The position numbers and the translations under genes are program-made. Positions 1 to 48,829 of a DNA stretch of 64,000 nucleotides are shown piece by piece. Under the pieces are notes generated by a model. The model saw nothing but the letters and a program-made list of their open reading frames with translations, was not told the DNA's origin and made no database searches. The stretch's first letter is position 1, and every line of letters starts with the position of its first letter. Source of the stretch: Eledone cirrhosa. Taxonomy: Eukaryota. The stretch spans positions 223,696,001-223,760,000 of the forward strand of contig OZ024742.1 of NCBI GenBank assembly GCA_964016885.1. Reading direction: 5' to 3'.

Positions 1-250
1 TTTATTCCTGGGAGGGTTGTGGGAGCAAAGTCTTCAGCCACACCTTCTGGAGGGACATATCAAAAGCAACTGTCTCTAAATGATCCAATTGGATCTCCAA
101 GTGATACCAGCCAAGCTCACAGATGTTATCCAACCCTCTTGCTCATGGTCTACCGCTCTGCCAGTAAAATCTGTCCAGTGATTCTTTCCTTAGACATTCT
201 ACAGAGCTGTGATCTTTCAATTTGGAGAAGTAGCAGCTATACATGGAACG
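1..250 (-). mobile_element. Degenerate RTE-type LINE 3' coding fragment
   Basis: Minus strand reads as a broken GR-x-RW-D...LGI...VAxD...WLKTLLPQPS C-terminus. Confidence 0.55.
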
Positions 251-1182
251 ATTCCCTGATCTCTAAGTTACAAACTCTATTTAATAATATTACTCCAAAG
301 ACCCTTCAGAGGAACCCCCATTTTGATCACTTATATTTGAGATTGTTTTCTTTTTCTATGGCCAAGATCCTTGGCCATAGGTAAGGGTAGGTATATAATA
401 AACCATTTCCCAATAAAAATCTCTAATTTCTATAAAACAATCTTCTCCACCAATGATATATCCCCTACCAGCTCCTTCTTTACTTACACTTATAGCCTAC
501 CCAACTAGCATAACTCCACAATATTATGATCCAGGTAATGTTTTAACTTTTAACACTTGATAAAACCACATTAGTAAGACATTCTTTAAAAATATAAAAC
601 AACACTATGACTGTCTCACATTCAAAATTTAAGATTTTGTCTAATACTGCAATTTTTTACAACAGTCTGTCCACTATAAACATTTAAATTAACAAATTTG
701 TATTAACTTTTACCATCCTGTACCACATGAAATTGCATTAGCAAGAGACATTCTTTAAAAGAATAAAACAGTACTGTGACTACATTACATTCAAAATTAA
801 ATTTGTTACTCTAATACTGCAACTTTTCACAATCTGTCCATTAATAAAGATACTATAAACATTTGAATTTACAAACTACATAAAACCATGTTAGCAAGGC
901 ATTTTTAAAAAGTACAAAACAGCACTATGACTGCATTACATTAAATATTAAACATTTTAATTAACACACCCATTTTTAAAAGATTGATATTAGATCTTTT
1001 AGATAAAGACAGTGTTTAAATTAAAACTACAAGACTGGTTCTGGATCTATGATATAAATGTATCATATTTAACCCTTTAAACATTAATCCAGCTGAAACC
1101 ACATCTATTAAAATGTTTAAATTAAAATTAAAATTTGAGACCAAAATCACAATATTACATAGTAGATAATATTAGTTAAATA

Positions 1183-1362
1183 TGTGGATTGGCACTATCA
1201 GTAGAGGGTCGGACGCCATGCTTTCCAGCATAGTTACGTCCCTTTACGATCTGAGTTCAAATCCCGCCGAGGTTGACTTTGCCTTTCATCCTTACGGGGT
1301 CGATAAAATAAAGTACCAGTAATACACTGGGTAATTGCTGGCCTTGTGCCTAAAGTAGAAAT
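1183..1362 (+). mobile_element. tRNA-derived SINE family 1 (copies at 30511-30698, ~10143-10345, ~53565-53778; fragments at 8030, 11672, 35280)
   Basis: B-box GAGTTCAAATCC followed by the central motif GCCTTTCATCCTTACGGGGTCGATAAAATAAAGTACCAG. Confidence 0.85.
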
Positions 1363-3381
1363 AATTAGTTAAATATTTGTATTATTGTTGAATTGAAAGT
1401 TAGTTATTTAACTAAACCTTTCATAATCTTTGGTTATTTTGATAATTAAAGTAAAAAGGTAATATATTCATGTTAGCAATATGATAACAAAGGGGTTAAA
1501 TTGAAGTATTCTTATTCAAATTAAAACTCATCATAATTATTTTTAAGAACCTTTTAAGTTATAATGTAAAAGTTGGCTATTTTACTTAAATACTTCCAAT
1601 ATATCTATTTATTTAGGGTTAAGTGGACTCATCAATTATTTCAAGGGCAAGACTAACTCTCTAGTGTTGGTAATCCTTACAATGAGTGCACTCAGTACAC
1701 TCTGTAAAGTAGTTGGTGATAAGGGAATCCAACCTGACAAACAAAGTGTCAGGAGCACTCATCAGCTGTATCAAAGACCTGACAAGCTTCTTAGTTTAGG
1801 TGCCATGATAAAATGCACCCAGTGCACTCTGTACAGTGCTAGGAAATATGTAAGCGAGATGCAGCCCATTGGCCCATCGGAGAAGTCCATAGTCTTGATT
1901 AAGTACTGACTTGGAATTTGACAACTCAACCAACCATTGCTAGTAGGGAAAATGAATGTTAAATGATTCTTTTTCAGGGCTTCTGGGACTGGAAAGAGGG
2001 AGGAAGAGTGTAGGGTATCCTCAAACCAGAGATCTGGCCTGTTTGCAACAGAGTGGACTCTACTGAATCCTTTTAAGAGCAAGGTGGTGATGTTAAACTG
2101 GGTGAGGAATTAAGTCTGCCATATAAATAGGACACAATGAACCAGAACAAATACTACAAGAAATCCTTTCTTACATGCTCACAATTCTGTCAATCCACTG
2201 CCCTGGATTGGTACTTTAATTTATCCACCCTGAAAAGACAAAAGGATTTGACCTCAAAGAGTAGAGAACAAGGCATTTATCTTACAATCTAATGACTCTA
2301 TCAATCCATTGGCAATCTTGAATATTTTCAAAATTAATTAAAACACGTAAAGAGGCACAGACATGGCTGTGTATGTGTAGCTAGGGAGTTCATTTCACAG
2401 CTATGTAGTTCTGTGTTCATGGTCTGATCTGATGATTGACTCCTTTCCTTTCTTTTCCTCTGCGTCACGCAGTAATACATAGTACCCGACCTCCCATGGG
2501 TACAGGCTGAAGCATATAGACAATATGCCCCCACACCCTCCCACTGCAAGGTGGTCGTGGAGGTGCCATGGCAAAAAAGCACCCAGCCCACACTGTAAAG
2601 TGGACATGTAGGCGCCACGGAAAAAGCACCCAGCACTCACTGTAAATGAGGTTGGTGTTAGGAAGGGCATCCAGCTGTAGAAATCGAGCCAAAATCAGTT
2701 CCTGTATGAGCAAGGCATGGTCAGCCGACCAGACACAGTCAACAGCAGGACAACCCGTCTAACCCATGCTAGCATGGAAGAACGGACGTAAAACAGTGAT
2801 GATGATGATGATGATGATGAGAGATGAAATAGATGTCATTTTAATGGAATCCCTTCATTAGAGGAGGATTATTTGTGTAGAACCATGCAATCACCTAATG
2901 TATATTTCTTGAATCTAGTGAGTCATTTAAAATCTTTCTTGGACCCAGAACCACATAGTATCGAAGCAAGTTTCTTAACTACACAATCCTAATTATATCC
3001 TAATGAAAAATATTGAGGAATATTTTAGTCTTTTCATTTTCATATTTTGATTTCTATTAATACTGTTTCTCTTCAAGTGAAGGCAAGTGACCTAGTGGTT
3101 AGGGTTTTGGACACATGATAAGGGTCATGGATTTGATTCCTGGACTGGGTGGCATTTATGTTCTTGAGCAAAATACTTCATTTCATTCATGTTGCTTCTT
3201 CTGCCAGGTGTTGTGACTGGCAGATAAATATCAACAATGGAAATACCAATAGAAACATTTTTTTCATGGTTCAATCATGGCTCCTTTTGTTTCACTTTGA
3301 AATTTCTAGTATTTATTTTTTTCCAATACATTAACAGTTACTTGGAGTATTCTAATATCTTTTCCTTTCTATTTTTAACAG

Positions 3382-3644
3382 CCTCTTACTTTATGAATCA
3401 TTGGTACTCTCAAGCAACCCAACCACCCAAAGTTGGTAATATTCCAGCACCCATTCAAATAGATACAATTAATGACACTCAGGTGATCAAAGATGGTTTA
3501 ACATGGCCAGGCTGGGAAATAGTGATGCCGAACGAATATTCCAATGTGACTGATATATCAAAGAATTTAAACAAAACATATGGAACGACACAGCCTAAAA
3601 GGTTGCAGTTAAAAGACAGTCAAACACAAAAGATATTATATAAA
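3382..3644 (+). CDS. Gene A, first visible internal exon (ASYFMNHWYSQ...DGLTWPGWEIVMPNEY...KILYK); upstream exons probably outside the window
   Basis: Polypyrimidine acceptor tttttaacag at 3381, open frame (inside ORF 3237-3704), donor GTAAAA at 3645. Phase 1 to 0 fits exon 9390. Confidence 0.7.
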
Positions 3645-6618
3645 GTAAAATGCTTTCATAATTTTTTGTTTTCTATAATTTGGTACAGTCATGCTGCTAA
3701 CTAAAACACACACCAATTTAGTTTTCACTTAGATTTTATAACCTTTTTGATACCAAACTGCTTGAAACTGCTCCTGGTTCTACGATACAAAACTGTTTGC
3801 TTTAAAGTATTTATAACTATTTATTTATCTAAAAATCTTTCATCATAATTTTATGTAAAAACTTTTAGGTTGTATTCCAAATAGCAGCTAAATAATGAAA
3901 AAGTTAATCATATTACTAAATCTAACCAAATTCATTATTTTCAAAATTATTTGAAAGTTATAAGCAGAAATATGGTAATGAATGGGTCCATCAGGTAATT
4001 AATCTATCATTGTTTGTAATCTTATTGATATATGCATATATATGCACACATGTGCACACCACACTTTGCAGACTGGCAAAAAAAGATGGTGTAAAGTTGA
4101 AGTAAGTAAAAACAGAGAAGAGACACATATGTCAAAAGTCATTGATAAGGTCACAAACTGTGACAATTAATTAATTTGCTGATTAGGTGATTGACCAACT
4201 GACTGATGGATTAATTAACTAACTAATTATATAATCTGTGTGTGTGTGTGTTAATTAGCAGCATGACCCTCCCCAAATGCCACAATATTTGTTTTAACAC
4301 ACAATTTCACCACAAGAATCTTGCAAAACAAATACAAAAATGAAACAAACGTTTTCTTTTAATACTGGTTTTGGTTATTGAACATTGAAGAATTTTAGTA
4401 AATTACATGTATTAATCTTTAAGGTGGTAAATTATAAGAGTCATTAGAGCATTAGATTAAATACCTCACAATACCTGATTTGCTTTCATCTTTTTGGGGT
4501 CAATAAATAAAGTACCAAACTTGAGTAAAGGATTAACAGGTTGTCGTGACCTTTGCCTTTCTCTTGGACAACATCATATGTAGTGTATATATAGTGTTGG
4601 TGATCTACACAATAAAAGTACCCAGTACAGGTTGTAAATTGATTGGTGTTAGGAAGGGCATCCAGCCATAGAAAGTTTGCTAAATAAAAAGTTTGTGAGG
4701 ACCTTCTAGTTGTGTCAAAGACATGACAACTTCTTTAGTGCTAGTGCCATAATAAAATGCACTTGGTAGAACATAGAACCATATGTAAGTGAGATGTGAA
4801 CCTCCAGCCTGTCTGAGAGGTCAATGGCCCTGCTTCAGTCCAGACACGGTTTGTGAGGACCCATCTAACCCTTGCAAGCAGAGAAAGTCGATGTTAAATG
4901 ATGATGATAATGATATACATACATATATCATCATCATCATCATTATTTAACGTCCATTTTCCTTGCTAGCAAGGGCTGGATGGGTCTTCACAAACCGAGT
5001 TGATACTCATATGGGGCTACTGACCTCTCAAATAGGCCAAGAGCTTGCATTTCACTTACACATGACCCGACACTCTACCAAGTGCATTTATTGTGACATG
5101 GGCATTATAGAGATTTTCCTGTTTTTTACACAACTGGAGGGTCTTCCAACCTTTTGTTTGGCAAGCTTTCTACAGCTTCCTAAGATCAATCATTTTACAG
5201 AGTTCACATGATGTGTTTATTGTGTAGATCACCAATATTAGGGAAATTATCATATATTTGATACAACTGAAGGGTCCTCCCAATCCTTTGTTTGGCATAA
5301 TTGAAGGGTCTTCTCAACTCTTTGTTTGGCAAAATTTCTACAGTTTCTTAGCATTTGACCCTTTTTGGCAGAGTTTTTACAGTGGGATGCCCTTCCTATC
5401 ATCAACCACTTTACAGAGTGTTTTGGGTACATCTTTGTGGCCCCAGCAGTAGAGAGGTTTGTTGGTTATTGTTTCAAGCCATTTGGGTTTGCTTTTATCT
5501 ATTTTTGTTTAGTAGAACTCCTGTTTATAGTTTATATGTAAGCTTTTTCTGTAATATGTTGGGGTGATGGGTTGTTTCATATTGTTTAAAAAAGTCTTAT
5601 TCAGGAATTTAATTGCTGAGTATGTAGCTTTACTTCATTCCTTCGTTCAGGTTTATCAACTCATTAAGTGGGGTAGGATTTAAATTAGGCTAATGGGTGA
5701 TTACAGAATTTTGGTTTGGTTGGTTCACATATTGGTAGTTGAGTGTGTGGTTTATTTCAGTGGGTCACATTTACTAGAAGTATATAGTTGAAGAGGATTT
5801 CTGGTGGTTTATACTGATTATGTGTTAGTGTAATGCAAATTATGTAATGAGGTAGTTGTCACTACATAATGTGATAGCAGCAACTGCCTGATGATGTCTA
5901 TCATTTCCATACCAGTAATTCATACAGGATAGTTGTTGTTTTGCTGGAAGGTTATATAGTTATATATGTGTGTGTGTGTGTGTGTATAATATATATTTAT
6001 ATATATATATAATATAGGAGTACGGTGTACAGACTTATGTGCATGTGTGGGCTCCTGTATCTGTGTGTATGTATGGATATATACATGTCTGTGTGCATCT
6101 GTACGTCTATGCCTGCCAGTCTATGTCAGTCGAATTTCTACATCTTACAATTATGTTTTTATTATTATCCGTCCAAACCCATGCAAGCGTGGAAGATGGA
6201 CGTTAAACGATGATGATGATAATGATGATGATGATGATGATTTCTTCCTATCAATATTATCCACACCCACAACCAGGCAATTCCCTTTTTTTAATTCTTT
6301 AACAAAAACTTGAACTGTCCTTACTGACATGATAATCTAACACCGGGCCGTCCAAACATGACCCACCCCACAAACCCCTGCACATAGGGCCAGTCCTTGC
6401 TTCCTGTTTACACCAAAGCAAGTTTTTGACTGACCAATACACATTCCAAAACGCGCCAACATGTGCACGCACACACACAAATCCTTAATTCCTTGAGCAC
6501 TCATGCAAACACACACATGAATATTGGTAAATGCACACCCGCATTGCTGCACCACCAATTACACCAAAATACACCTCATATGCCCAGACACAAAAAGAAC
6601 AGGCTGATGCCTATATAT

Positions 6619-7836
6619 CATCATCATCATCATCATCATCGTTTAACGTCCATCTTCCACGCTAGCATGGGTTTGGACGGGAATTTTACCACTTGAGGCA
6701 AGATTGGTTGTCTTGCTCGTATAGGACTGTCTGGCGGGTTTACTACGGCTGGATGCCCTTCCTAACACCAACCACGTTTACAGTGTGAACTGGGAGGTTT
6801 TTACCGTGTTACCTACACAGCCACATTACAGCGTGGACTGTGTGTTTTTTTGTCATGACACCTACACGCCCTCATTTGTTTCGGACTGGATGTTGTGGTA
6901 CCAACATAACTTTACAGAGAAAAGGGTGGTGTGATGGGGTGGGGGTAGTGGGACGGGGGGGTTGTTAAGAGGTGCCTACTGACTGTAGGTTTCGCTTTGT
7001 ACTTAGGCAAGGTGGGTCTTCTGTATTACTGTGTAGCGCCAAAGATCTTGGTCCAGTGACATCGTCTTGGAGAGGTGTAAGTGTGTGAGGTCGGAATTTA
7101 TCAAGTCATCCCAGGTTTTTCTCAGTCTGCCTACTCCGTGGCTACCGTCTATTTTTATCGCCCTGCACTTTTTTATACAGCTGTCATCTTTCATGCGCAT
7201 CACGTGACCATACCAACGTAGTCTTCTCTTGAGTAAACAACATCTGATCCCTCTTATTCCTAATTTCTCCCTTAGTTCGTTTATGCTTTGCCGTTCACGT
7301 ATATTACTATTACACATCCAGTGGAGCATGCACGCTTCATTCCTCTCCAGTCTGTGTATATCCTCTGCACACAATGCCCAGGTTTCACTGCCATGCAACA
7401 TTGCTGTTCGTATGCAGGCATCATACAGCCTGCCTTTCATTTTTAGAGAGAACCCTTTAGCGGCCAATAGTGGTATAAGCTCTCTGAACTTTTTCCATCC
7501 AGTTCTGACTCTAGCTAGTGTACTTTCAGAGTACCCTCCCCCACTGCTGATTTTGTCACCCAGGTAACAGAAGGTGTCCACTATTTCTATAGAACCATCT
7601 GTGCAATGGAATGAGTTAGTATTCTGTGGGCACTTGCTGCTACTTATTGCACCAGAGCACCGGCCACATATAAAATCTATATTCTTAGTTAGCTTACCTG
7701 TGATCCCACTACATCTTTTATGCACCCATACTTTGCATTTGGGACATAAAATGGAGTTTCTGCCTACTCCTTTCCTACACACTGAGCATGGCCATTTTCC
7801 AGATGGGACCGGTGTCCTATTTTCCTTCCTACAAAC
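6619..7836 (-). mobile_element. 5'-truncated copy of the same RTE LINE (PHD-like finger, C-terminus, 3'UTR, (GAT)n tail)
   Basis: ORF 7003-7872 closely matches the C-terminal ~280 aa of the full ORF. The 5' end abuts (TA)n. Confidence 0.93.
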
Positions 7837-8777
7837 TATATATATATATATACATACCTTCTCAGCCCACATACCACAACAAAAATATATCTTTTGTCAC
7901 ATCACCAGTTTGAGGAGTAGATCGATGCTAGAGCCGAGTCCATAACTCCTATGGGTCACCTTGAACCAATCCTCTGTGAAACACATGTAACAGGTCGATA
8001 TGCAATAAATATTTTTATATGTAAATGAAACTTCCTCGTTTTCTTCGATGTGGTCGATAAAATAAAGCACCAGTAATACACTGAGTAAAATCTGGCCTTG
8101 TGCCAAAAGTAGAAACAATTATATATATATATATGTATATAATAATATAAATATGAAGGCGTGTGGCTGAGCGGTTAGAGAATTGGATTCGCAATCGAAA
8201 GTTTGTGAGTTCAATTCCTGGACCAGGCGATGCGTTATGTCCTTGAGCAAGACACTTTATTTCACGTTGCTCCTTCTACCTGGAGTTGCGACTGATAGAT
8301 AGTACTAGCAATTGGAAAGACCAACGGAAACATTGTTTCCTCGGTCCGATTTGACGAAAGTCGATCGTTCCTTTTATGTATATAATAGAAGAAAACGAGC
8401 AAATTTTGTTTATATATATCATCATCATCATCATCATCGTTTAACGTCCATCTTCCACGCTTGCGTGTGTGTGTATGTATATATATATATGATTAGGAGA
8501 TGAAGCAAGTCAAATAGAACAGACATAACTTCAGCCGTTATTTATATATATTGTTGACATAAGAAGCATTGAGAAAATTTGAAATTTTGAAAAAAGTGGA
8601 CAGAGGTGACTCTGTTCATTATTTTTTGTCAATAAGATTATTTTATCTGTTTCTTTTTCAACTATTATTTATAGTGATCATTTATTACTATAATCCTCTC
8701 TACTGGGACAACAGCATTTCTAGTTGCATATATAATATATGTTTGACCTATCATCAATGATGACAGATCATACATAC

Positions 8778-9138
8778 ATCATCATCATCATCATCATCAT
8801 CGTTTAACGTCCCTGTTCCACGCTTGCATGGGTTTGGACGGGGGTTTTCCCACTTGAGGCAAGAGTGGTCGTCTTGCTCGCATAGGACTGTCTGGCGGGT
8901 TTTCTACAGTTGGATGCCCTTCCTAACACCAACCACATTTACAGTGTGGGGCTGGGAGGTTTTTACCGTGTTGCCTACACGGCCACATTACAGCGTGGAC
9001 TGTCTGGCGGGTTTTCTACAGCTGGATGCCCTTCCTAACACCAACCACATTTACAGTGTGGGACTGGGAGGTTTTTACCGTGTTGCCTACACGGTCACAT
9101 TACAGCGTGAACTGTGTGTTTTTTTGTCGTGACACCTA
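8778..9138 (-). mobile_element. RTE 3'UTR-only copy carrying the 112-bp internal duplication
   Basis: Near-identical to 31398-31740. Confidence 0.9.
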
Positions 9139-9389
9139 CAGTTTCTAATAATGCAAAATACATTCCTTTGTCAACAATGACTATGGAACTGATATTTTTT
9201 TAATATCCAGCCAATACCATGTATCAAAACATATATGAGCATATGTATATGTGTATACATGGGTGTACATGTATGTATATGTGTAGGAGTGGGTGTACAT
9301 GCATGCAAATAATACAAATAAATGCACATATTTGCAGGCATAGACTTTAATATTTATTCTAATCATGATGGTGTTATTTTTTTTTTAAG

Positions 9390-9513
9390 CTAAGAGCTGC
9401 CTTAAAACAGAGTGCTACTAAAATAGCTTTGGAAAAATGGTTTGAAAAAGTTGGTTCCTCCAACAACTTTGCCTTCTTTATGAAATGGATCAACAATTTT
9501 GAAAATCCACAGT
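9390..9513 (+). CDS. Gene A exon (LRAALKQSATKIALEKWFEKVGSSNNFAFFMKWINNFENPQ)
   Basis: ttttttaag acceptor, GTAAGT donor, 124 bp open frame, phase 0 to 1. Not in the ORF track. Confidence 0.85.
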
Positions 9514-11282
9514 GTAAGTTTTTCAATACTGTAACTCTTTTATTTCATATGTCATTTCACTAAAGATCATCATCATCATCAACAACATCGCCATTATAAT
9601 CCTCCTCCACATCATCATCATCATCATCATAATAATAATAATAATAATATTAATGATTTCTAGGTTAGACATAAGACCAACAATTTGTAGGGATGAGGAA
9701 AATTGATTTAAATCAACTTTCGTGGGTATGTAAAGAACAGGAACAAATGCTACAAAGCTTTTTATCCAACACTCTACTCATCAAGATCATGGTGATCATT
9801 ATTATAATCATTATCAACATCACTATCAACATCATCACCATCATCATTATTATCATGATATTGGTGATCATCAGCATGAGTTGGATAAGTTAACCAAGTC
9901 AGTACTTACTCAGAAATACAGTATTTTTTTACTTATATTTTTTTCCTAGCTAGCTGACAATTAACTACTCATGTTTTTTCTCTCTCCCTTTTCCTTCTTT
10001 TCTCTTATCTGTCTTCCTGTTCTGCCTTCTACCAAACCTCCTTTCTTCCCTTCTCTCTGTATCTACCTGCCAATGAAGGAATAGTGTCTGAAACATTAAG
10101 AGTCCTTTCTAACTTCTTATAAGTGTTTTTCTAATATAATGAAGGTGGTGGATTGGCAGAATTATTAAAGAATTGTACAATATGCTTTGTGGTATTCATT
10201 CTGACTTTTTATATTCTGAGTTCAAATTCTGCCAAAATCAATTTTATCTTTCAACCTTTTAGGATTGATAAAATAAGAATCAGTCATGTACTTTAATGAA
10301 CTTTCCACTACCTCCAAATTGCTGGCATTATGCCTAAATTACAACTATTATACTAATCATTAACATCAACATCACTATTTTACATCTATTTTCTATGCAT
10401 GGATCAAACTGGTTGTTATGTTCTAAGACAAGACAGATCAGCTGACCACGTCTTGTTCATACATTCCATTTGGGGATAGTTTCTATGGTTAAATGCCCTC
10501 CCTAATGTCAAATACTTTACAGTATGTACTGGGTGTATTTCATCATGGTACCACCATTACCACCTTACAGACTGGCCTGAATGTTTTTCATTATGACACC
10601 AGTACTGTCATCTTATAGTGTGGACTGATGCATTTTATTATGGCACCAGCATCACCACCTTACAGTGTAGACTAAGTGCATTTTATTGTGGCATTAGTAC
10701 AAAGACTTTATAAAGTGTAATAAGTGCATTTTATTGTGGTATCAGCACTACCACATTACAGTATGCCTTTTATTTTGACACCAGTACATTTTACAGGGTG
10801 GGCTGGATGCTTATTACTGTGGCACCAGCACTACCGCTTTACAGAGTGGACTAGGTGCTTATTATCATGACACCAACACTGCCCACTTACAGTGTGGACT
10901 GGGTGAACTTTATCTTGGCACCAGCACTACTGTTGTTTTAATGATTTTGACTTAACTTTAAATGTATATTATATTTTAGCTCAATGGCCTCATCAAAAAA
11001 AGAACTGGTTAGAGATCAACACCCCAACACATCAAAACAACTATTACATCCCACCACTCTACTCAGATCCCTTCCAGGCATATTACCAAATGAATGGTCA
11101 GCTATCTATGCCAACTACAAACGACCATTATATGAACTGGTTGACTGAAACAATAAATCCTTATATGAGTAAGTAAAGTCATGTTTCTCATCTTTACTTC
11201 AACAATTATGGCAACAAATTGACAGAATCAATAGAGCATCAGACCAAGTGTTTTGTGGTATTAGTTTTGGCTCTGTTTGCTC

Positions 11283-11600
11283 TATCATGGTACCAGCACT
11301 ACCACTTTACAGGGTGTATGGGGTGCATTTTATCATGGCACTAACACTACCACTTTACAGCATGGACTGGGTGCATTTTATCTTGGTACTGGTTCTACCA
11401 CTTTACAGGGTGTACTGGGTGCATTTTGTCATGGCACTAGTACTACCACTTTACAGCATGGACTGGGTGCATTTTATCTTGGTACTGACTCTACCACTTT
11501 ACAGGATGTACTGGGTGCATTTTATCATGTCAACAGCACTATGACTTTACAGGATGTACTGGGTACATTTTATCATAGCACAAACACTTCCACTTTACAA
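11283..11600. repeat. ~7 diverged 48-bp units of the same family (older array at ~10510-10930)
   Basis: ccactttacag...ctgggtgcatttt periodicity and 16-aa repeats in the spurious ORFs. Confidence 0.9.
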
Positions 11601-11810
11601 CAGTGAAGGTTGGAAAAAGATTAAAACATGGCACAAGTTACACTGTTGCATGGGTTTTGTTTTCTTAATTAATTGTTTCTACTTTTGGCACAAGGCCAGC
11701 AATTACTGGTACTTTATTTTATCGACCCCGTAAGGCAAAGTTAACCTCGGTGGGATTTTCTTAATTAATATAATCCAAATACAAGTTAACTTTACTGTTT
11801 GTCATTTCAG

Positions 11811-11975
11811 ATTATGATTTCACCTTCCCATATATGTACCAATCTTTGAACAAACCTTATTTCCAACAAGAGATGTTACCTTTCCAGCCTTATTACCCAA
11901 ACAAAATGCCTGAGATTGTCAATCCTATATCTCCATTAGATAATAAACCAGCTCTTATAGTAGATCGGGGTTTAA
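11811..11975 (+). CDS. Gene A exon (YYDFTFPYMYQSLNKPYFQQEMLPFQPYYP...IVDRGL)
   Basis: tttcag acceptor, GTAAGT donor at 11976, only phase 1 is open, symmetric 165 bp. Confidence 0.88.
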
Positions 11976-12004
11976 GTAAGTTAAATCAATTGTTCTACTT
12001 TAAT

Positions 12005-12315
12005 CGTCATCATCTTCATTGTCTTGTCGTCATTAATATCATCACCAGCATCAACAGCATCATCATCATCATCATCATCATCATCTTCATCACCATCATC
12101 ATCACCACCACCACTACTACCATCATCATTGCAGTCATTGCCATTGTCATCATTATCATCAACATCATAATCATCATCATTGTCAACATTATCATCTTCA
12201 TCATCTTTTTCATCATCGTCATCATCATCACAATCATCCTTACCTTCATCATCATTGTCATCGCCATTATCATCACCATTATCATCACCATTATCATCAA
12301 CATCATCATCATCAG
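12005..12315. repeat. Imperfect (CAT)n trinucleotide tract
   Basis: ~310 bp of CAT/CAC/TAT triplets. Confidence 0.95.
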
Positions 12316-13469
12316 AGTCATATGTTCTATGCTAACATTGGCTGGACAGGCTGTTACAGACCAAGTTGGTGCTAACTTAATTCTTCTTGATGGGCCAGTT
12401 GATCAATATTTCACTCAATATTTTCCAATTTTAGCATGGCTTCACAGGCTAGATGACCTTAATAATGGCAACCATCTTATAGAATGTACTGAATGCATTT
12501 TATTGTGGCACCAACACTAAGGATGCTGTAATGTTCTTGATGTGACTGGAGAGTCCTTTCAATCCATTTTGGCATTGTTTCTACAGCTGGATGACCTTCC
12601 TATCTCTAACTACTTTACAGACTGTACTGTATGCAATTTATCATAGGACCAGCACTAACACTTTACAGAGTGGATTGGGCACATTTTATTTATCTGAAAA
12701 TCTTCCATCATAATTTTATGTATGAACCTCTTTAAATTATGTTCCATACACCAACCTAATAATGAGAAAATTAATTATATTATTAAATTATTCCAAATTA
12801 TTTATTTTGAAAATTATATGAAGATAATAGGTACTTTCATTAGAATTATTATTTTTTTATTTTATGTCTTTATGGAAAGGGGTATGTAAGTATGTGTATG
12901 TGTCTAATTTTTTAAAAACCTATACTGAATGAAAAAAAGTTGTTTATCTTATAAATGAGTAAAATATTCAATTTTTGGTAGTTTCAGTCATTTGTTAAAC
13001 TTATTTGATTTATATGTAATTAACTACAGTATATATAATTTGTGTACATATATCATCGTCTTTGTTTTTACATCACCTTTCCCATGCTGGCATGGGCTGG
13101 ATGGGACATTTTATACAGCTACAGTTGCTGTGCCGACTTTTTTTTCAGTAAAATGACTATTTTTTTAAACAAACATTTATTAACAACACATATCTGAATG
13201 ATTGACAAACGTCACATCAATAAACTAGTAACCCCATCTAGCTTTGAAGTTATGAACTGTTGGAAAAGAGTTCATAACTTTGAAGTTATAAACTTTTGGA
13301 AAAGAGTTCAAACATGTTAGAACGAGTTTTCTTGTCTACGGCACTGAAGAGGTTAAACTGTTGAATTTTCATGGAACTAATTTTCATGGCAATGATTAAA
13401 ATATGTTTTTGTTGATATTATTGTTTTTTCTTAATTTTTGACTTATCAGCTTCCATTTATATATTTTAG

Positions 13470-13596
13470 ATATCACGGTGATATTTGATGTCAGGGAATT
13501 TAATGTTTCCATATGTAAGGCCACAGTATCAATGCCATATTCACCAACTCTTAAAAACCTTCTGAGAAAAGCCAAAGCTAAAAATGATTGTTTCAA
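13470..13596 (+). CDS. Gene A exon, start of DUF4430/transcobalamin-beta-like domain (NITVIFDVREFNVSICKATVSMPYSPTLKNLLRKAKAKNDCFK)
   Basis: ttttag acceptor, GTAAGT donor, phase 1 to 2. Pattern ITVxxxV...TVxxxxxxTLxxLLxxA...F resembles the beta-domain N-half. Confidence 0.88.
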
Positions 13597-13629
13597 GTAA
13601 GTTCAGATAAGTTAGTTAACTATTAACAC

Positions 13630-14250
13630 ACTGCACCACATGAAACTGCATTAGCAGTACAAAATAGCACCATGACTGCATAACAATAAACATGAAAGCC
13701 TTTACTCTAATACTGTAAATTTTCACAACACTAGTAAAGATAATATAAATATTTGAATTAACAGACCACATGAAACCACATTAGTAAGGCATTCTTGAAA
13801 AGTACGAAACAGCGCTATGACTGTATCATATTAGAAATTAAAGTGTTTTCTTTTGTTTACTGCTAATTTTCACAACAATCTGTCCACTAATAAAGATACT
13901 CTAAACATTTGAATTAACAAACACATTTTTAATATTTAACATCCTGTACCACATGCAAATATATTAGCAAAATGTTCTTGAAAAAGTACAAAACAGTACT
14001 ATGACTGCATCACATTAAAAATTAAAGTATTTACTTTAATACTGCAAATGTTCCCAACAATCTCTCCACTAATAAAGATACTATAAGCATTTGAATTAAC
14101 AAACCATATAAAATCACATTAGCAAGAAATTTTTGAAAACATCACTATGACTACATCTCATTAAAGATTGAAGTCTTTATTCTAATACTACAAATTTTCT
14201 CAATGATCTATCTACTAGTAAAGATATTACAAGCATTGGAATTAAGAAAG
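13630..14250. repeat. Tandem ~135-180-bp AT-rich minisatellite, ~4 units (also 560-960; reverse fragments near 38340, 38600, 62870)
   Basis: Recurring acattag(t/c)aag...aaaacag.actatgactg...ctaatactgc...gtccactaataaagatact. Confidence 0.82.
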
Positions 14251-14821
14251 TCATATTTAGATATCTTCTGCTAAATTATTACTGGGTGTTAAGATTGAAA
14301 ATCTATTTTTTTATGTTTATTTACTCTTTTACTAGTTTCGGTCATTAAACTGTGATCATGAAGTGATTTAGTCAATCATATCATCCCCAGTACTTACTTT
14401 TTTAAGTCTGGTACTTATTTTATCAATTTCTTTTGTCACACTACTAAGACTCACACAGATATATCTATATCTGGGAAGTGGTTGGCTTGGTGCCACAACA
14501 AAAAACCGCCAGTCCACACTGTAAAGTGGTCGTGTTGATGACATGACAAAAAGCACCCAGTCAACACTGTACAGCGGTCATTTTGGTGCCACAATAAAAA
14601 ATACCCACTCCACATTGTAAAGGTGGTTGGTGTTATGAAGGGCATCCAGCCATAGAAACTAGGCCAGAAACAGTTCTGTATGAATGAGCAAGACACGGTC
14701 ATCTGATCTGACTTGCCTCACAATGGGACAACTCGTCTAACCCATGCTGTGTGGAAAAATGGCCGTTAAATGGTGATGATGATGACACATACACACATGC
14801 ATACATACATATATATATGTG

Positions 14822-16105
14822 TCATCATCATCATCATCATCATCATCATCGATTAACGTCCATCTTCCACTCTAGCATGGGTTGATGAGTCCTATTTTAA
14901 GGCAAGTTGTGTCAGGTGACCATGTCTCGCTCAAATAGGAATGTTTCTGGCTGGTTTTCTATGGCTGGATGCCCTTCCTAGTGCTAACTACATTTACAGT
15001 GTCGACTGGGTGCTTTTCGCTGTGTCTTTTACACATCCACTTTACAGTGTGGACTGGGTGCTTTTTGCTGTGTCTTTTACACATCCACTTTACAGTGTGG
15101 GTTGGGTGCTTTTTGCTGTGTCTTTTACACATCCACTTTACAGTGTGGACTGGCTGCTTTTCGCTGTGTCTTTTACACATCCACTTTACAGTGTGGACTG
15201 GGTGCTTTTTGCTGTGTCTTTTACACATCCACTTTACAGTGTGGACTGGGTGCTTTTTGCTGTGTCTTTTACACATCCACTTTACAGTGTCGACTGGGTG
15301 CTTTTTGCTGTGTCTTTTACACATCCACTTTACAGTGTGGGTTGGGTGCTTTTTGCTGTGTCTTTTACACATCCACTTTACAGTGTGGACTGGGTGCTTT
15401 TTGCTGTGTCTTTTACACATCCACTTTACAGTGTGGGTTGGGTGCTTTTTGCTGTGTCTTTTACACATCCACTTTACAGTGTGGGTTGGGTGCTTTTTGC
15501 TGTGTCTTTTACACATCCACTTTACAGCGTGGGTTGGGTGCTTTTTGCTGTCTTTTACACGTCCACTTTACAGCGTGGGTTGGGTGCTTTTTGCTGTGTC
15601 TTTTACACATCCACTTTACAGCGTGGGTTGGGTGCTTTTTGCTGTCTTTTACACGTCCACTTTACAGCGTGGGTTGGGTGCTTTTTGCTGTCTTTTACAC
15701 GTCCACTTTACAGTGTGGGTTGGGTGCTTTTTGCTGTGTCTTTTACACGTCCACTTTACAGCGTGGGTTGGGTGCTTTTTGCTGTCTTTTACACGTCCAC
15801 TTTACAGTGTGGGTTGGGTGCTTTTTGCTGTGTCTTTTACACATCCACTTTACAGCGTGGGTTGGGTGCTTTTTGCTGTCTTTTACACGTCCACTTTACA
15901 GCGTGGGTTGGGTGCTTTTTGCTGTCTTTTACACGTCCACTTTACAGTGTGGGCTGGGTGCTTTTTGCTGTGTCTTTTACATGTCCACTTTACAGTGTGG
16001 GCTGGGCGAAGAGGGTTTGGGATATGTTAGTAGGGGGGGGGGGGGGGGGGGCATACTGTACATATGCTTCAGCTTGTGCTCATGGGAAGTCGGATCTTCT
16101 GTTAC
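14822..16105 (-). mobile_element. RTE-tail non-autonomous element with an expanded internal array (shorter relatives at 2480-2820, 14500-14785, 16355-16700, 37660-38000, 51990-52350, 62200-62645)
   Basis: (CAT)n-ttaacgtcc tail, ggatgcccttcct module, 48-bp units, and a shared 5' segment (gcttcagc..gt.c.catggga.gtcgg). Confidence 0.85.
14990..16005. repeat. Tandem array of 22 units of 48/46 bp (CCACTTTACAGTGTGGACTGGGTGCTTTTTGCTGTGTCTTTTACACAT)
   Basis: TTTACAG counted 22 times from 14993 to 15989. Spacing is 48 x11, then 46,48,46,46,48,46,48,46,46,48. Confidence 0.97.
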
Positions 16106-16839
16106 ATATAATGTGTAGTAGTTTGCTTGAAGCATTGTTTATTTTTTTTCATTTCAGTTTTGTTAAGATTAAACATACACATGCGTGTAAACATGTATTG
16201 AGCTGGTAGGACATCTATGTGTGTATATGTAAGGATGTATGTGTGTGTAAGCATGTATATGACATATATGTGTGTACGTAAATGTATCCATAGATGTGTA
16301 TGAATGTACATGTTTGTGTAAATATGTAAGTGCATATGTATGTGTATAAATGAATACAGAAGACCCGACCACCCACGGGTACAAGCCAAAGCTGAAGACA
16401 ATATGCCCCCACACCCTCCCACTGCAAAGTGGTCATGTAGGCACCACGGCAAAAAAGCACCCAGCCCACACTGTAAACTGGACGTGTAGGCACCATGGAA
16501 AAAAGCACCCAGCACTCACTGTAAATGAGGTTGGTGTTAGGAAGGGCATCCAGCTGTAGAAATCAAGCCAGAATCAGTTCCCGTATGAGCAAGACAAGGT
16601 CAGCCGACTGGACACTGCCCACAACAGGACAACTCGTCTAACCCATGCTAGCATGGAAGAACGAACGTAAAACGATGATGATGATGATGATGATGATGAT
16701 ATGTGTGTGTACATAAATGTATCCATAGGTGTACATATATGTGAATTGAGTGTAAAGTATGTATGTATGTATAAAAGATTGTACTGGCAATCAGGTGTTT
16801 GACTTGTGTGTGTGTGAATGTGTCTGAAGTATGGATCAA

Positions 16840-17460
16840 GCTAGATCAGCCACTGTGCCTTGTTTCTTTCCATGCTATTATTAATGGGAGGCTCTTGTTG
16901 CCTAATCAGAAGGGCTTCCTTGATTCTCAGCATGCCTATACTGCGTTCCATAACCAGGATGGTGGTAATTATTTTTGTATCCTTCTTCTTGTATTTAAGG
17001 ATATGTTTGTGGAATGATGAGGAATTTGTAGTGATGTGCTCTTTTATTCTGAGGTGCAGGGGTCGAATAGTGCTGTTGATGTAGATATAGAATTGACTGC
17101 ACTTGCTACATTCTAACCTGTACACCACATAGATATGCAGACAATGGTTAGGGCTGTGAATGGAGTAATTGCTTAGGGTGCACGTGTTCTTGTTGAGGGG
17201 TCTGTCTTTTGGATAGGCACCTATGTCGGGAAAGTCTCAAGAGAGACAGTCAGATGTCAAGGCCTTCTCTCCGGATAGCTCTGAGTATAATGCTAGTTGT
17301 TTTCTCACTGAGGTATGGAATCCTGAAGAAGCAACTGTTGGCTGAGTTGATCTATCTTGGGGTTCCACCATTGGGTGGAGAAAGCCTAGGTCGCCATTGG
17401 TTTCTAACACACTGTGAAACTACCTGGTGTGGGTGGCTCTACTTAAGGTATCACTGCATC
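16840..17460 (-). mobile_element. Penelope-like element remnant (GIY-YIG endonuclease)
   Basis: VYRLECSKCSQFYI...TIRPLHLRIKEH...KEALLIRQQEPPIN is the PLE GIY-YIG signature. Confidence 0.88.
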
Positions 17461-18904
17461 TTTTGTGTATATGAGTGATTTCACTTTTGATGTACCCTCT
17501 TTTAGAGCTGTTGGGGGGGGGGGGGGCAGATTTATGGTGGACAAAAACACACACATATGTCATTACATTTACACACATTCATATGCACTTAGATGTTTAC
17601 ACACATATGTCATATACATGCTTACACACACACATCCTTGCATATACACACATCAGTACATAGATGTTCTACCAGCCCAACACGTGCATTTTCATGCATG
17701 CATATGCATAACCTTAATACAACCCAAATTTAAAAAATAAACAGCAGCCAGAATGACAATGTCTGACTTCTCAAAAGCCTCCTCCCACTATGGAACCCCT
17801 TTGGTAAATAAAAAAAAAAAAATTAGGGGACAAATAAATTGCCGAGATAACTATCAATCATTCTTTTCTTTTATTTTCCTTCTCTCACTTTTTGCTTTCT
17901 ACCTCACCTCTCTCAATTCACTTGCTGCCTTGCTATTTAAAACCTGCTTACATTGTACAGCTTCCTAAACATACCCATTTTTCATATATGTCTAACCCAT
18001 GCTGATGTGGAAAAATGGACGTTAAACCATATATATATATGTACATATATATATATAAATTTGAGCATGTGTTGGTTAATCACCGACACTTCAGTATGCA
18101 GAATAGAGCACTTGACTAAGTGCACAAGTGGGTCTGTTTACTCCAGAGTATATTTATAAACATGAAATATAAGTCAACAAGTTAAAATCAACTTTGTTTA
18201 TTCATAGTCACTGTTATATATATATTGGTGATAACCGTTATGCAACAGCTATGACCTCATCAGACAGCTAGAATTTGAACAGAAAAAAACAGAAAAACAT
18301 AAAGATGAAATAACAGAAGTAAGCTTTATTTCATCTTTATATATATATATATATATATATACAACTGGCTTCTGCATTGGTAAACCAATGTGTTGCACAG
18401 CAGGATTGAACCTAGAACCATATGGTTACAAAATAAATTCTTTAACAACAGAGCCTTAGCTTTATTTATTTATTTATTTATTTATTTATTTGTTTGTTTG
18501 TTTGTTTGTTTGTTTGTTTGTTTGTTTATTTATTATAATGAATATATAGATGTCCAATATGTCTATTAGTTTCTGTCATCATCATTATCATCATCATTGT
18601 CATTATCATTAAGTCAAAGAAATTATCAGACACATGATCTTAGATTTGATTTGACCTGAGATGAAGGGTTGAGATGAAAACAATTATATTGTTGAGGAGA
18701 AAAAACACTTGATCTCAGATCAATTCAAATGTCAAACAAGTAGAACACATCATCATCATTTTATATCTGCTTTCTATGCTTGCATAAACCGAACGGGTTA
18801 TCACATTTTATTGTTGTCAAATTCTCAATAAGGCCAAAGGGACCGCTTTACTTTACTCCAAAATACAAATTATTCATTTTGTTTTTGTTCTTATGATATT
18901 TCAG

Positions 18905-19014
18905 ATTTACACCTGATAACCAAACTGGAAAATATCTGTATTCGATGAATGGTATAAAGGCAACTAAATCAAGTATCTGGAAGATTTCAAAGACAAATGA
19001 ACCAACTGAACTAA
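18905..19014 (+). CDS. Gene A exon (FTPDNQTGKYLYSMNGIKATKSSIWKISKTNEPTEL)
   Basis: tttcag acceptor, phase 2 to 1. GxYxxSxNGIxA...W is the transcobalamin beta-domain core. Donor GTACTT is weak. Confidence 0.85.
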
Positions 19015-19239
19015 GTACTTATCTCTTTCCTACCTTTCTTTTCTTTGTTCTTTCTTTTTTACTTTCATTCTTTCTTTATTTCCTTCCTTCTTTTTATTTT
19101 AGTTTGTTTATTTCTCATTTTTTCTTATACTCATCATGAGTTACTTTTTGTGACCATATTGCACAGCCAAATACCCTTCCTGGCACCAACTCTTTTTGTT
19201 ATCTCTCACAATACACAGGGACACAATGTACCTTTTTAC

Positions 19240-19535
19240 AAACTAGATATATACAGAGAAGATGACCTTAAATCTGGATATATACAGAGAAGATGGATTT
19301 AAAACTAGATATATATACAGAGAAGATGGACTTAAAACTGGATATATACAGGAGAGATGGACTTAAAATGCTTGCTGTTATTGTATTTCTCACAGTGGCA
19401 AATTTGGTAGACTTAATCCACCACCCAGTTCAAAACCACCACTTGGTCCCTGAGTAGTAGACTTAATCCATCACCCAGTTTACTACCACTACCTAGTCCC
19501 TTGGTGGTAGACTTAATCCATCACTACTTGGTCCA
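19240..19535. repeat. Two adjacent minisatellites: ~32 bp x4 and ~48 bp x3
   Basis: aaact(a/g)gatatatacagagaagatg repeats, then gtagacttaatcca.cac repeats. Confidence 0.85.
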
Positions 19536-20193
19536 CGGGGTGTTTTAGTGATTATTTTGTTGCAAGCATTCAGACTGAGTCACCAATTAAAGGAATAAAA
19601 TATACTTCTGTATACCCAGGTATATCACTACACTGCAGTGTACCCCTAACAATACACTACTACACTGCACTCCTTTCAGTACACTGCAGTGTACAGCATA
19701 AAGTACACTATTATACTACAGTGTACATCCTACAGTACACTGAAGTATACCCAGGCACCCCTTACTACACTGAAATGTATCCTTTACAATACACTGCAGT
19801 GTACACACACATATTCATACATACACACTCACACACACACACACTAACACATATGCATAGACATATATGCACACACAAATTTGATTTTTTTTTTAAATTC
19901 AAGTCATTCTAAGTAATGTTTCCAAATTATCTGACTAACTACACATGTGTCTCCCTCCTCCTGAGAAACTTTACCCACCTATTATCTTTCTATTCTTACG
20001 CTTCTCTATCTTTCTATTTCTTCTCTCTCTCATTCTGTCTTCCGATGAAGGACTAATGTCTGAAACGCCAAGACTCTTTTCCATACTCTGTCAAGTGTTA
20101 AATGTTTCATCATTTTATTATATTGTTTGTCCTCTTGTGTTGTTTTTAGTTATTAATTTTTGTCAGAATTATTTATACATTTATCTCTTTCAG

Positions 20194-20252
20194 GTTTGGA
20201 CTACAAGCCCAATGATGGTGACTACATCATTATTAATAACATCAGTACTTAA
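20194..20252 (+). CDS. Gene A terminal coding exon (SLDYKPNDGDYIIINNIST*)
   Basis: ctctttcag acceptor, phase 1, DYxPxDGDxI motif typical of the DUF4430 C-terminus, TAA stop. Confidence 0.87.
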
Positions 20253-20361
20253 CTGATTACATATCAGAAAAAGGAATTAAAAATTGTAAAACAAACAAAA
20301 AATATATATATTTCCACGAGGAAATATATTTTTTTTGTCTTCTTATTTTTTTTAAAATTCC

Positions 20362-25671: not shown

Positions 25672-27244
25672 AGAGATCTAGATGAAATGCAGTTCGGGTT
25701 TGTGTCAGGCAAAAGTACCACAGACGCTCTTTTCATTGTACGACAACTACAGGAGAAGTACCTAGCTAAAAGTAAACCCCTATACTTAGCTTTTGTCGAC
25801 TTGGAGAAAGCCTTCGACAGAGTGCCCCGTTCCATTATCTGGTGGGCTCTTAGAAAACTAGGTGTTGATGAATGGCTTGTGAGAGCTATACAAGCCATGT
25901 ATAAAGAAACAGTCAGCAAGGTTAGAATTAACAACGAATATAGTGAAGAGTTTAGCGTAAAAGTTGGTGTTCATCAGGGCTCTGTTCTTAGCCCCCTACT
26001 ATTTATTATTGCCCTACAGGCTATAACAGTGGAGTTCAAGACCGGCTGCCCATGGGAACTCCTATACGCAGATGATCTAACGCTCAAAGCTGAATCAATG
26101 GCCGAGCTAGAGAAGAAATTCCAAACATGGAAGCACAGCCTAGAATCAAAAGGCCTTAAAATTAACCTGGCTAAGACTAAAGTTCTAGTTTGTAGGAAAG
26201 AAAATAAGGCGTCGGTCCCTTCCGGGAAATGGCCATGCTCAGTGTGTAGGAAAGGCGTAGGTAGAAACTCCATTTTATGTCCCAAATGCAAAGTATGGGT
26301 GCATAAAAGATGTAGTTGGATCACAGGTAAGCTAACTAAGAACATAGATTTTACATGGAAAAAGTTCAGAGAGCTTACACCACTATTAGTCGCTAAAGGG
26401 TTCTCCCTAAAAATGAAAGCAGGCTGTATGATGCCTGCATACGAACAGCAATGTTGCATGGCAGTGAGACCTGGGCATTGTGTGCAGAGGATATACGCAG
26501 ATTAGAGAGGAACGAAGCTTGCATGCTCCGCTGGATGTGTAATAGTAATATACGCGAACGGCAAAGCATAAACGAACTAAGGGAAAAATTAGAAATAAGA
26601 GGGATCAGATGTTGTTTAGTCGAGAGAAGGCTATGTTGGTATGGTCACGTGATGCGCATGAAAGACGACAGCTGTATAAAAAAGTGCAGGGCAATAAAGA
26701 TAGACGGTAGCCACGGAGTAGGTAGACCCAGAAAAACCTGGGACGACCTGATAAATTCCGACCTCACACACTTACACCTCTCCAAGACAATGTCACTGGA
26801 CCGAGACCTTTGGCGGTACTCAGTAACAGAGAAGACCCGCCTTACCTGAATACAAAGTAAAAGCTACTACAGTCAGTAGGCATCTCTAACAAAACACACC
26901 CCCGTCCCACCACCCCACCCCATCCACACCGCCCCTTTCAATGTAAAGTTATGTTGGTGCCACAACATCCAGTCCGAAACAAATGAGATCGTGTAGGTGT
27001 CACGACAAAAAAACACACAGTCCACGCTGTAATGTGGCCGTGTAGGCAACACGGTAAAAACCTCCCAGTCCCACACTGTAAATGTGGCTGGTGTTAGGAA
27101 GGGAATCCAGCCATAGAAAACCCCCCAGACAGTCCTATGCGAGCAAGACAACCACTCTTGCCTCAAGTGGGAAAACTCCCGTCCAAACCCATGCAAGCGT
27201 GGAACATGGACGTTAAACGATGATGATGATGATGATGATGATGA
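25672..27244 (+). mobile_element. 5'-truncated RTE copy (RT to tail) with an internal deletion and a frameshift
   Basis: QFGF...LYADD present. KNIDF joins directly to WKKF (about 60 codons lost). (GAT)n tail at ~27220-27244. Confidence 0.92.
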
Positions 27245-48655: not shown

Positions 48656-48829
48656 CTAAGATGGTAACAGATCAAAGTCATCATTCACTTGTACCATTGG
48701 TACATGGAGATCATCAACAACAGGCATATTGTTCAAGTCTGAAACTTCCTTCATTTTCCACTCCCAATCCATCTTTTGGACTGCAAATAAGGATTCAGCT
48801 TCGTGGTGGTGCCTCAGCAACAACAATTC
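48656..48829 (-). CDS. ANKRD11/12: ANKRD11/12-like terminal exon (ELLLLRHHHEAESLFAVQKMDWEWK...VPMVQVNDDFDLLPS*)
   Basis: 58 codons including TAG. HEAxxLxAVQxMxW and VPMVxVNDDFxLLP terminal motifs. Confidence 0.96.
   Translation of the reverse strand, partial: ELLLLRHHHEAESLFAVQKMDWEWKMKEVSDLNNMPVVDDLHVPMVQVNDDFDLLPS

What the first reader, a model, noticed from the sequence alone, without database searches (positions are those of the whole stretch)
3382..20252. Hidden spliced gene: transcobalamin-beta (DUF4430)-like domain fused to an unrecognised domain
Seen: six exons buried in 17 kb of repeats join with consistent phases (1-0-1-1-2-1) into one open ~280-aa C-terminal peptide, which the ORF track misses. 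Established: the last ~100 aa (ITV...GKYLYSMNGIKA...W...DYKPNDGDYI) follow the cobalamin-contacting beta-domain pattern of transcobalamin, haptocorrin and intrinsic factor. Inference: the upstream ~180 aa (NHWY, GLTWPGWEIVMPNEY, YYDFTFPYMYQSL..PYF, PFQPYYP) do not look to me like the transcobalamin alpha-barrel. Several N-x-S/T sequons (NDT, NVT, NKT, NIT, NVS, NQT, NIS) suggest a secreted glycoprotein. It may be an undescribed B12-binding or ligand-binding domain fusion.
Basis: partly seen in the sequence, partly recalled or inferred. Interest (0 to 1): 0.8.

Follow-up and report, generated by a model that had tools for sequence, protein, structure and literature searches.

The report
Octopus proline-rich protein hides B12-binder domain
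A real spliced gene, whose closest relatives are unannotated Octopus proteins, encodes a long proline-rich, likely secreted protein ending in a domain that is most likely a divergent relative of the vitamin-B12-binding half of transcobalamin, so it may catch B12 outside cells, though binding is untested.

Summary
The gene is real. One spliced contig joins four of them at GT..AG and runs on into the fifth and into an upstream exon. Five more exons upstream (mostly inferred) give a 611-aa protein: signal peptide, short two-Cys motif, 234-aa Pro/Ser/Met repeat arm, short helical segment, Tyr/Pro/Asn/Gln spacer and a 98-aa C-terminal domain. Relatives are 'uncharacterized' proteins of Octopus bimaculoides and O. 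sinensis.

Pfam misses the domain, but several weak signals agree on the transcobalamin beta-domain (DUF4430 clade). An octopod-only profile ranks human TC-beta first of 177,635 PDB sequences (E 0.11). Language-model neighbours are DUF4430. A low-confidence model ranks haptocorrin, TC and intrinsic factor 1, 3, 4 and 12 of 48,161 (Z 3.5-4.4). Two introns match human TCN2 in phase and position.

The upstream part is not an alpha-barrel and is mostly low-complexity, not a new folded domain. Best reading: a secreted beta-only corrinoid binder on a polyproline stalk (0.45). Close rival: a structural secretion protein with a co-opted domain (0.4). New variant of a known kind.

The parts
3382..3644 (+). 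Coding exon, phase 1>0; carries the conserved W-P-G-W motif and the start of the helical segment; 3 sequons
   Evidence: joined upstream and to 9390 in the X1 contig; matches Octopus P0004
9390..9513 (+). Coding exon, phase 0>1; predicted amphipathic helices
   Evidence: 39% and 34% identical to P0004 and P0006; hydrophobic moment
10980..11168 (+).
   Evidence: joints 9513>10980 and 11168>11811
11811..11975 (+). Coding exon, phase 1>1; Tyr/Pro/Gln-rich spacer
13470..13596 (+). First exon of the TC-beta-like domain (strands 1-2 and helix; two Cys conserved in octopods), phase 1>2
   Evidence: loose end; 51% identical to P0004, E 2.3e-4; pLDDT about 61-74 over this part of the P0004 model
18905..19014 (+). 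Second domain exon (ligand hairpin with Gly360/Tyr362/Leu363, Gly368 and Trp377 equivalents), phase 2>1, 110 nt; counterpart of TCN2 exon 8 (116 nt, phase 2>1)
20194..20252 (+). Last coding exon to the TAA stop (59 nt; last TCN2 coding exon computes to 62 nt); polyadenylation-like hexamers at 20276 and 20362
   Evidence: matches the end of P0004
436..534 (+). Third tandem copy of the Pro-rich exon, with its long-form acceptor changed from AG to AA; skipped in the X1 contig; likely decayed
1..3381 (+). Intron reaching back out of the window to five upstream exons in G000 C3: L006:8223-8284 (signal peptide), L003:9310-9366 (two-Cys motif), L002:1166-1270, L002:1835-2299 and L002:7167-7298 (Pro-rich)
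   Evidence: only the last is joined by the contig; the two-Cys exon matches O. sinensis at 11 of 17 residues; the signal exon is inferred

Best explanation
This is a spliced octopod gene for a proline-rich, likely secreted glycoprotein whose last 98 residues are most likely a divergent transcobalamin beta-domain, and it likely works as a beta-only corrinoid (vitamin B12) catcher held on a long proline-rich stalk in a secretion or extracellular matrix. Shown: exons and splicing, composition, the Octopus relatives. Strongly inferred (about 0.9): homology of the domain to TC-beta. Inferred: secretion through the upstream signal exon; an extended, unfolded repeat arm that spaces or anchors the domain; origin from a beta-only TC-type gene that gained symmetric phase 1-1 low-complexity exons between its signal exon and its three domain exons. 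Weakest step: that the pocket still binds a corrinoid, with lower affinity than two-domain carriers because there is no alpha-domain clamp.
For: Splicing.
Domain: (a) a profile built only from octopod sequences has human TC-beta 5NO0 as best of 3 hits among 177,635 PDB sequences, E 0.11, collinear over positions 22-101 of 106. (b) ESM Atlas first hit is a DUF4430 cluster, 0.90, 193 of 256 features shared, 10 of 10 best family hits agree. (c) An AlphaFold model from octopod sequences only gives strand-strand-helix-strand-strand order and aligns over the whole domain to haptocorrin (rank 1, Z 4.4, rmsd 3.7, 83 aligned), bovine TC (rank 3, Z 4.0), TC-beta (rank 4, Z 4.0) and intrinsic factor (rank 12, Z 3.5) among 48,161 chains. 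(d) A 27-sequence bacterial DUF4430 profile scores the window domain 7.0 bits, reached by 0 of 2000 shuffles. (e) TCN2 exon 8 is c.1107-1222 (PMC6373502): a phase-2 intron in mature codon 351, the residue after Phe350, and a phase-1 intron in codon 390. The window gene has a phase-2 intron in the codon after the aligned Phe and a phase-1 intron within one residue of 390.
Ligand: the domain is the best-kept region against O. bimaculoides (50 of 98 identical, against 31 of 95 and 27 of 108 upstream). Gly360, Tyr362, Leu363, Gly368 and Trp377 equivalents are kept in 3 of 3 octopod sequences. Isolated beta-domains bind cobalamin and beta-only carriers exist (PMC5599065, PMC11107200).
Against: Every domain test is weak alone: 0 Pfam families; model pLDDT 53, under 50 over the ligand hairpin; Z 4.4 ties with an unrelated protein and lies in the range the tool calls common; hhalign probability 2%, 1 of 200 shuffles reach it, and the O. 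sinensis domain is reached by 12 of 2000 shuffles.
For B12 binding: the Gly after strand 2 (TC Gly334) and TC Gly390 are absent in 3 of 3 octopod sequences. The ligand hairpin differs by a six-residue indel between the window and Octopus, and carries an N-Q-T sequon in the window protein. Between the two Octopus species the domain is less conserved (70 of 104) than the helical segment (86 of 109). About 40% of the protein is Pro-rich repeat, which a simple carrier does not need. No tissue information was obtained.
Confidence: 0.45

Rival explanations
1. Structural or gland-secretion protein (mucus, cuticle, egg-string cement, spermatophore or similar). The Pro-rich arm is the working part, and the TC-beta-derived domain has been co-opted as an assembly, anchoring or other-ligand module that no longer binds B12.
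For: Residues 34-267 are 41% Pro, 18% Ser and 12% Met with almost no charge. The Octopus proteins keep 36-37% Pro but swap the filler to Asn/Phe/Val/Gly. The repeat exons are symmetric phase 1-1 and tandemly duplicated, and the O. sinensis locus is annotated up to isoform X13. Divergence is fast. Two family glycines are lost and the hairpin carries a sequon.
Against: The pocket-side residues (Tyr362 and Trp377 equivalents and the G-K-Y-L motif) are among the best kept while most of the protein drifts to 25-33% identity. That Trp377 contacts the ligand is recalled, not read here.
Confidence: 0.4
2. An eroded canonical transcobalamin: the ~95-aa helical middle segment is a remnant of the alpha-toroid and still helps clamp the ligand.
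For: Helices are predicted in the middle region (pLDDT about 30-38; moments). Exon phases 1>0 then 0>1 before the domain resemble TCN2 exons 5-6 (recalled, not checked).
Against: No PF01122 match on P0004, and no TC, HC or IF chain among PDB hits of P0004, A2 or exon 9390-9512. The segment is a third of the toroid's length, has no Cys in the window protein, and lies 117 low-complexity residues from the domain.
Confidence: 0.07
3. The resemblance to TC-beta is chance; the C-terminal domain is an unrelated octopod-specific alpha/beta module.
For: No test passes a standard threshold.
Against: Sequence profile, language-model features, fold comparison and intron positions all point to the same small family.
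Confidence: 0.08

Closest known systems
Transcobalamin / haptocorrin / intrinsic factor (TCN2, TCN1, CBLIF)
   Same: C-terminal beta-grasp-type domain with collinear sequence and fold order; two introns at matching phase and position to TCN2; likely secreted and glycosylated.
   Different: No alpha-toroid (PF01122). About 500 aa of mostly low-complexity sequence instead. Gly334 and Gly390 are absent, and a Cys pair flanking the helix is kept in all three octopod sequences.
Teleost beta-only Tcn-like (DUF4430-only) proteins
   Same: Secreted TC-beta domain without an alpha-domain (described in PMC4350170 and PMC1796856; called B12 transport proteins in PMC11107200, citing Benoit 2018, which I could not read).
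   Different: Those are short stand-alone domains that carry DUF4430; this one scores below Pfam's cut-off and sits at the end of a ~500-aa Pro-rich arm.
SLBB superfamily, transcobalamin-like clade (Burroughs et al. 2007, PMC1796856), including bacterial surface proteins with DUF4430
   Same: Beta-grasp with a hairpin insert, seen fused to varied extracellular tethering modules in prokaryotes.
   Different: The passages I read describe no animal fusion to a polyproline arm; one of the two hallmark glycines is missing here.
Octopus bimaculoides LOC106871109 (XP_014772898.1) and O. sinensis LOC115218319
   Same: Same order of parts; 35% and 31% identity to the model over about 600 residues (inflated by low complexity); likely orthologues.
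   Different: Named 'uncharacterized' or 'basic proline-rich protein-like'; precomputed Pfam only PF02095 on P0006; repeat filler is Asn/Phe/Val/Gly, not Ser/Met; the records seen lack the signal peptide.

Membership tests
Transcobalamin family (two-domain cobalamin carriers) | N-terminal alpha/alpha toroid (PF01122) | tested here: not met
   0 Pfam families on P0004 at E up to 1; upstream region mostly low-complexity
Transcobalamin family (two-domain cobalamin carriers) | C-terminal beta-domain homologous to TC-beta | tested here: met
   By convergence and intron positions (38, 101); no single test passes a standard threshold
Transcobalamin family (two-domain cobalamin carriers) | Binds cobalamin | not testable with these tools
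   Needs a binding assay
Pfam PF14478 DUF4430 | Score above the curated cut-off of 23.8 bits | tested here: not met
   0 families at E up to 10 for the isolated O. bimaculoides domain; 7 of 7 window exons negative. The window's own joined domain was not scanned against Pfam itself, only against home-built DUF4430 profiles (6-7 bits)
SLBB superfamily, TC-like clade | Beta-grasp fold (five strands, helix after strand 2) | tested here: inconclusive
   Model has the expected order of elements but pLDDT 53; best Z 4.4
SLBB superfamily, TC-like clade | Hairpin insert after the helix with a hydrophobic residue that stacks on the cobalamin base | tested here: met
   By alignment only: Tyr at TC Tyr362 in 3 of 3 octopod sequences; hairpin not resolved in the model
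SLBB superfamily, TC-like clade | Conserved Gly in the turn before strand 3 (TC Gly368, my mapping) | tested here: met
   Gly in 3 of 3
SLBB superfamily, TC-like clade | Conserved Gly just after strand 2 (TC Gly334, my mapping) | tested here: not met
   No Gly in this stretch in 3 of 3
Secreted Pro-rich structural glycoproteins (extensin-like by analogy) | Signal peptide and Pro-rich tandem repeats | tested here: met
   41% Pro over 234 aa, 15 S-P-P; hydrophobic N-terminus, no later 19-residue window above 1.01; signal exon not RNA-confirmed
Secreted Pro-rich structural glycoproteins (extensin-like by analogy) | Presence in a structural secretion; cross-linking or O-glycosylation | not testable with these tools
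   No tissue label on run X1

The most novel reading that the evidence does not exclude
Octopods have lost the two-domain transcobalamin, and this gene is its only descendant: B12 capture is done by a lone beta-domain on a 500-residue, alternatively spliced polyproline stalk, which would make a structural secretion double as a vitamin trap or a B12-withholding barrier against microbes.
Probability: 0.2. Interest if true: 0.72.

Novelty: new variant of a known kind. Interest (0 to 1): 0.5.

Why it matters
It puts a recognisable ligand-binding module on a gene that two Octopus annotations call uncharacterized, and shows a TC-beta domain in an architecture I did not find described for animals. 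If it binds B12, it is a candidate for how octopods handle a vitamin they cannot make, and it is testable with one 100-residue construct. If it does not, it is a clean case of a vitamin-binding fold co-opted into a fast-evolving secreted material.

Tried and rejected
No RNA holder was listed by the run search; this is no evidence either way. X1's spliced contig is the evidence used, from one sample of one study.

Single-exon searches found nothing useful: Pfam, word-based homologue searches, Atlas on the 36-aa exon (only beta-propeller look-alikes under 0.9), PDB, hhalign per exon. Three of the 4 hits (P0001-P0003) are unrelated repeat proteins and were dropped.

The full-length fold of P0004 failed (pLDDT 29), so it says nothing on the middle segment. 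Foldseek found no match at E up to 0.001 and listed no TC chain. Alignment A3 misplaced three exons and its PDB search was uninformative; hhalign of A2 with A1 gave nothing.

Own-genome searches for PF14478 (0 matches) and PF01122 (one match, E 9.2, with stops) work exon by exon and missed even this gene's domain, so they do not show that a canonical TC is absent. Searches with three exons and with P0004 found only this locus, so neither a paralogue nor a retrocopy was seen.

The locus names were not found in supplements of three octopus studies: skin mucus (PMC10138644, 1 file, cut when stored), oviducal gland (PMC8976471, 5 small files) and posterior salivary gland (PMC7693380, 1 file). No tissue can be excluded from this. 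Benoit 2018 and Wuerges 2006 and 2007 were not held. Earlier scan notes: none.
Full report
1. Observation. The window lies at G000 C3:223696001-223760000 of a 3.0-Gb assembly. Between 3382 and 20252 there are seven + strand exons with AG acceptors and GT donors whose phases chain into one open frame of 344 aa plus stop. Contigs of 4 runs were laid on 3000-12050. One contig of X1 (1148 nt, depth 676, no mismatches) joins 3644>9390, 9513>10980 and 11168>11811, continues into the first bases of exon 13470, and begins in a sequence found once in the 124 kb examined, in an exon ending about 2.7 kb upstream of the window. These joints have depth 0 in X2-X4. X1 is not on record as RNA, but it is spliced, and own-genome searches with three exons found only this locus, so a transcript is the simplest source. 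This is one sample of one study, and depth does not rank expression.

2. The whole gene. Scanning 60 kb upstream gave five more exons, all ending in phase 1: an ATG-bearing exon with a hydrophobic start (11-residue hydropathy 3.0), a 57-nt exon with two Cys, and three Pro-rich exons of 105, 465 and 132 nt. Joined in a script they give 611 aa without a stop. The signal exon lies 31 kb from the next one and is inferred, and further exons could be missing. Residues 34-267 are 41% Pro, 18% Ser and 12% Met and nearly uncharged. Residues 397-513 are rich in Pro, Tyr, Asn and Gln. A third tandem copy of the repeat exon at about 436-534 has lost its long-form acceptor.

3. Relatives. Exon 13472-13594 against 1.84 billion proteins gave 4 hits; 3 are unrelated repeat proteins and one is O. 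bimaculoides XP_014772898.1, 'uncharacterized'. Searching with its residues 60-440 found 2 proteins among 1635 candidates of 242-770 aa: itself and O. sinensis LOC115218319, annotated with isoforms up to X13. Longer or shorter forms were not searched with this query. The order of parts is the same. Identity of the window protein to O. bimaculoides is 50 of 98 in the C-terminal domain, 31 of 95 in the helical segment and 27 of 108 in the spacer. That the window's organism is an octopod is inferred from these relatives.

4. Is the C-terminal domain TC-beta? Pfam says no at its thresholds. Five lines say yes. (a) A profile of the two Octopus domains plus three window exons hits 3 of 177,635 PDB sequences at E up to 10, and the best is human TC-beta (E 0.11, 80 positions). 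(b) ESM Atlas neighbours of the O. bimaculoides domain are DUF4430 clusters: first hit 0.90, 193 of 256 features, 25 of 30 hits in that set. (c) The AlphaFold model from alignment A4 is low-confidence (pLDDT 53, pTM 0.53). Foldseek finds nothing, but VIA-align ranks haptocorrin, bovine TC, TC-beta and intrinsic factor 1, 3, 4 and 12 of 48,161, each over the whole domain with 16-22% identity against 3-13% for the other 46 rows, at Z of only 3.5-4.4. (d) Bacterial DUF4430 profiles: 123 loci were fetched by a motif pattern, 46 kept after a redundancy filter, and 27 of those picked by eye for A1, all 27 PF14478. The window domain scores 6.1 bits with the 46-sequence profile (2 of 2000 shuffles reach it) and 7.0 with A1 (0 of 2000). 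O. bimaculoides scores 5.9 (0 of 2000) and O. sinensis 3.7 (12 of 2000). These profiles are biased by the motif used to collect them. (e) Human TCN2 exon 8 spans c.1107-1222 (PMC6373502 passages): 116 nt, phase 2>1, introns in mature codons 351 and 390 (the 18-residue signal and 427-residue precursor are recalled, consistent with the 409-residue chains). The window exon is 110 nt, phase 2>1, with the first intron in the codon after the Phe aligned to Phe350 and the second within one residue of 390. TC numbering was checked against His345, Tyr352 and Leu358 (PMC5599065) and Tyr362 (PMC4350170). Together I put homology at about 0.9.

5. The upstream part is not an alpha-toroid: no PF01122 and no TC-family chain from P0004, A2 or exon 9390-9512. 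Only residues 301-396 look structured (W-P-G-W, then amphipathic helices). The full-length fold failed, so whether this is a small domain or a coiled oligomerisation segment is open.

6. How it likely works. Isolated TC-beta binds cobalamin and the beta-domain makes the first contact (PMC5599065 part 2 of 4 and passages; PMC11107200 passages). The clade is defined by a hairpin insert with a stacking hydrophobic residue, and most other contacts are through backbone atoms (PMC1796856 section 6). The octopod domain keeps Gly360, Tyr362, Leu363, Gly368 and Trp377 equivalents in 3 of 3 sequences while the rest of the protein drifts. I therefore favour a secreted beta-only corrinoid binder on a Pro-rich stalk (0.45). 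Against it: Gly334 and Gly390 are gone (several bacterial rows of A1 also lack the Gly390 equivalent), the hairpin varies by six residues and bears a sequon in the window protein, and the domain differs at a third of positions between two Octopus species. The repeat arm, with its swapped filler residues, tandem phase 1-1 exons and many isoforms, looks like a structural secretion protein, so the rival in which the domain serves assembly or another ligand is nearly as likely (0.4). The two can coexist. The shared introns suggest descent from an animal TC-type gene with low-complexity exons recruited ahead of the domain; this is inference.

7. Membership and novelty. It is not a transcobalamin (no alpha-domain) and not formally PF14478; it is a divergent TC-beta homologue in a different architecture. 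The two locus names and the XP accession had 0 occurrences in the 12 papers listed (13 held a term, all listed ones by the fourth term). 'Octopus' with 'transcobalamin' gave 2 papers on other subjects (listing only); searches showed nothing on cephalopod TC-like proteins in their listings. The library lacks most subscription papers, Benoit 2018 could not be read and may list invertebrate beta-only proteins, and unseen or cut supplements and InterPro may already note this domain. Also seen: PMC4350170 parts 1-3 of 4; passages of PMC6257451 and PMC7656900 (no bearing).

8. Verdict. Real gene; domain call very probably right but below threshold; the 'unrecognised domain' is mostly low-complexity sequence; function untested. 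New variant of a known kind, interest 0.5.

Noticed in passing
window 436-534 (+); L002:1835-2299 and L002:7167-7298: Three tandem copies of a Pro-rich exon ending in P-x-Y-Y-[DN]-P, 72-81% alike in DNA including intron flanks. The copy in the window has lost its long-form acceptor (AG to AA) but keeps an open frame and donor, with possible shorter acceptors at 472 and 496.
   Followed up: partly
window about 48660-48830 (-), with further likely exons toward the window end: A neighbouring gene on the minus strand; this exon's translation resembles the C-terminal region of ANKRD11/ANKRD12 (recalled, not tested).
   Followed up: no
L003:9310-9366; N-terminus of P0006: A 19-codon exon with a C-x4-C motif is conserved between the window's species and O. 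sinensis (11 of 17 residues) although the flanking repeats are not; it could cross-link chains.
   Followed up: partly
P0004 against P0006: The two Octopus proteins are only about 70% identical, low for congeneric orthologues in my recollection; fast evolution or hidden paralogy.
   Followed up: partly
window about 25680-26830 (+) and 32000-34980 (-): LINE-type reverse transcriptase remnants, by eye (searches show a related copy upstream); ordinary repeats.
   Followed up: no
window about 14990-16000: A long tandem array of a roughly 45-48-base unit inside the intron between the first and second domain exons.
   Followed up: no
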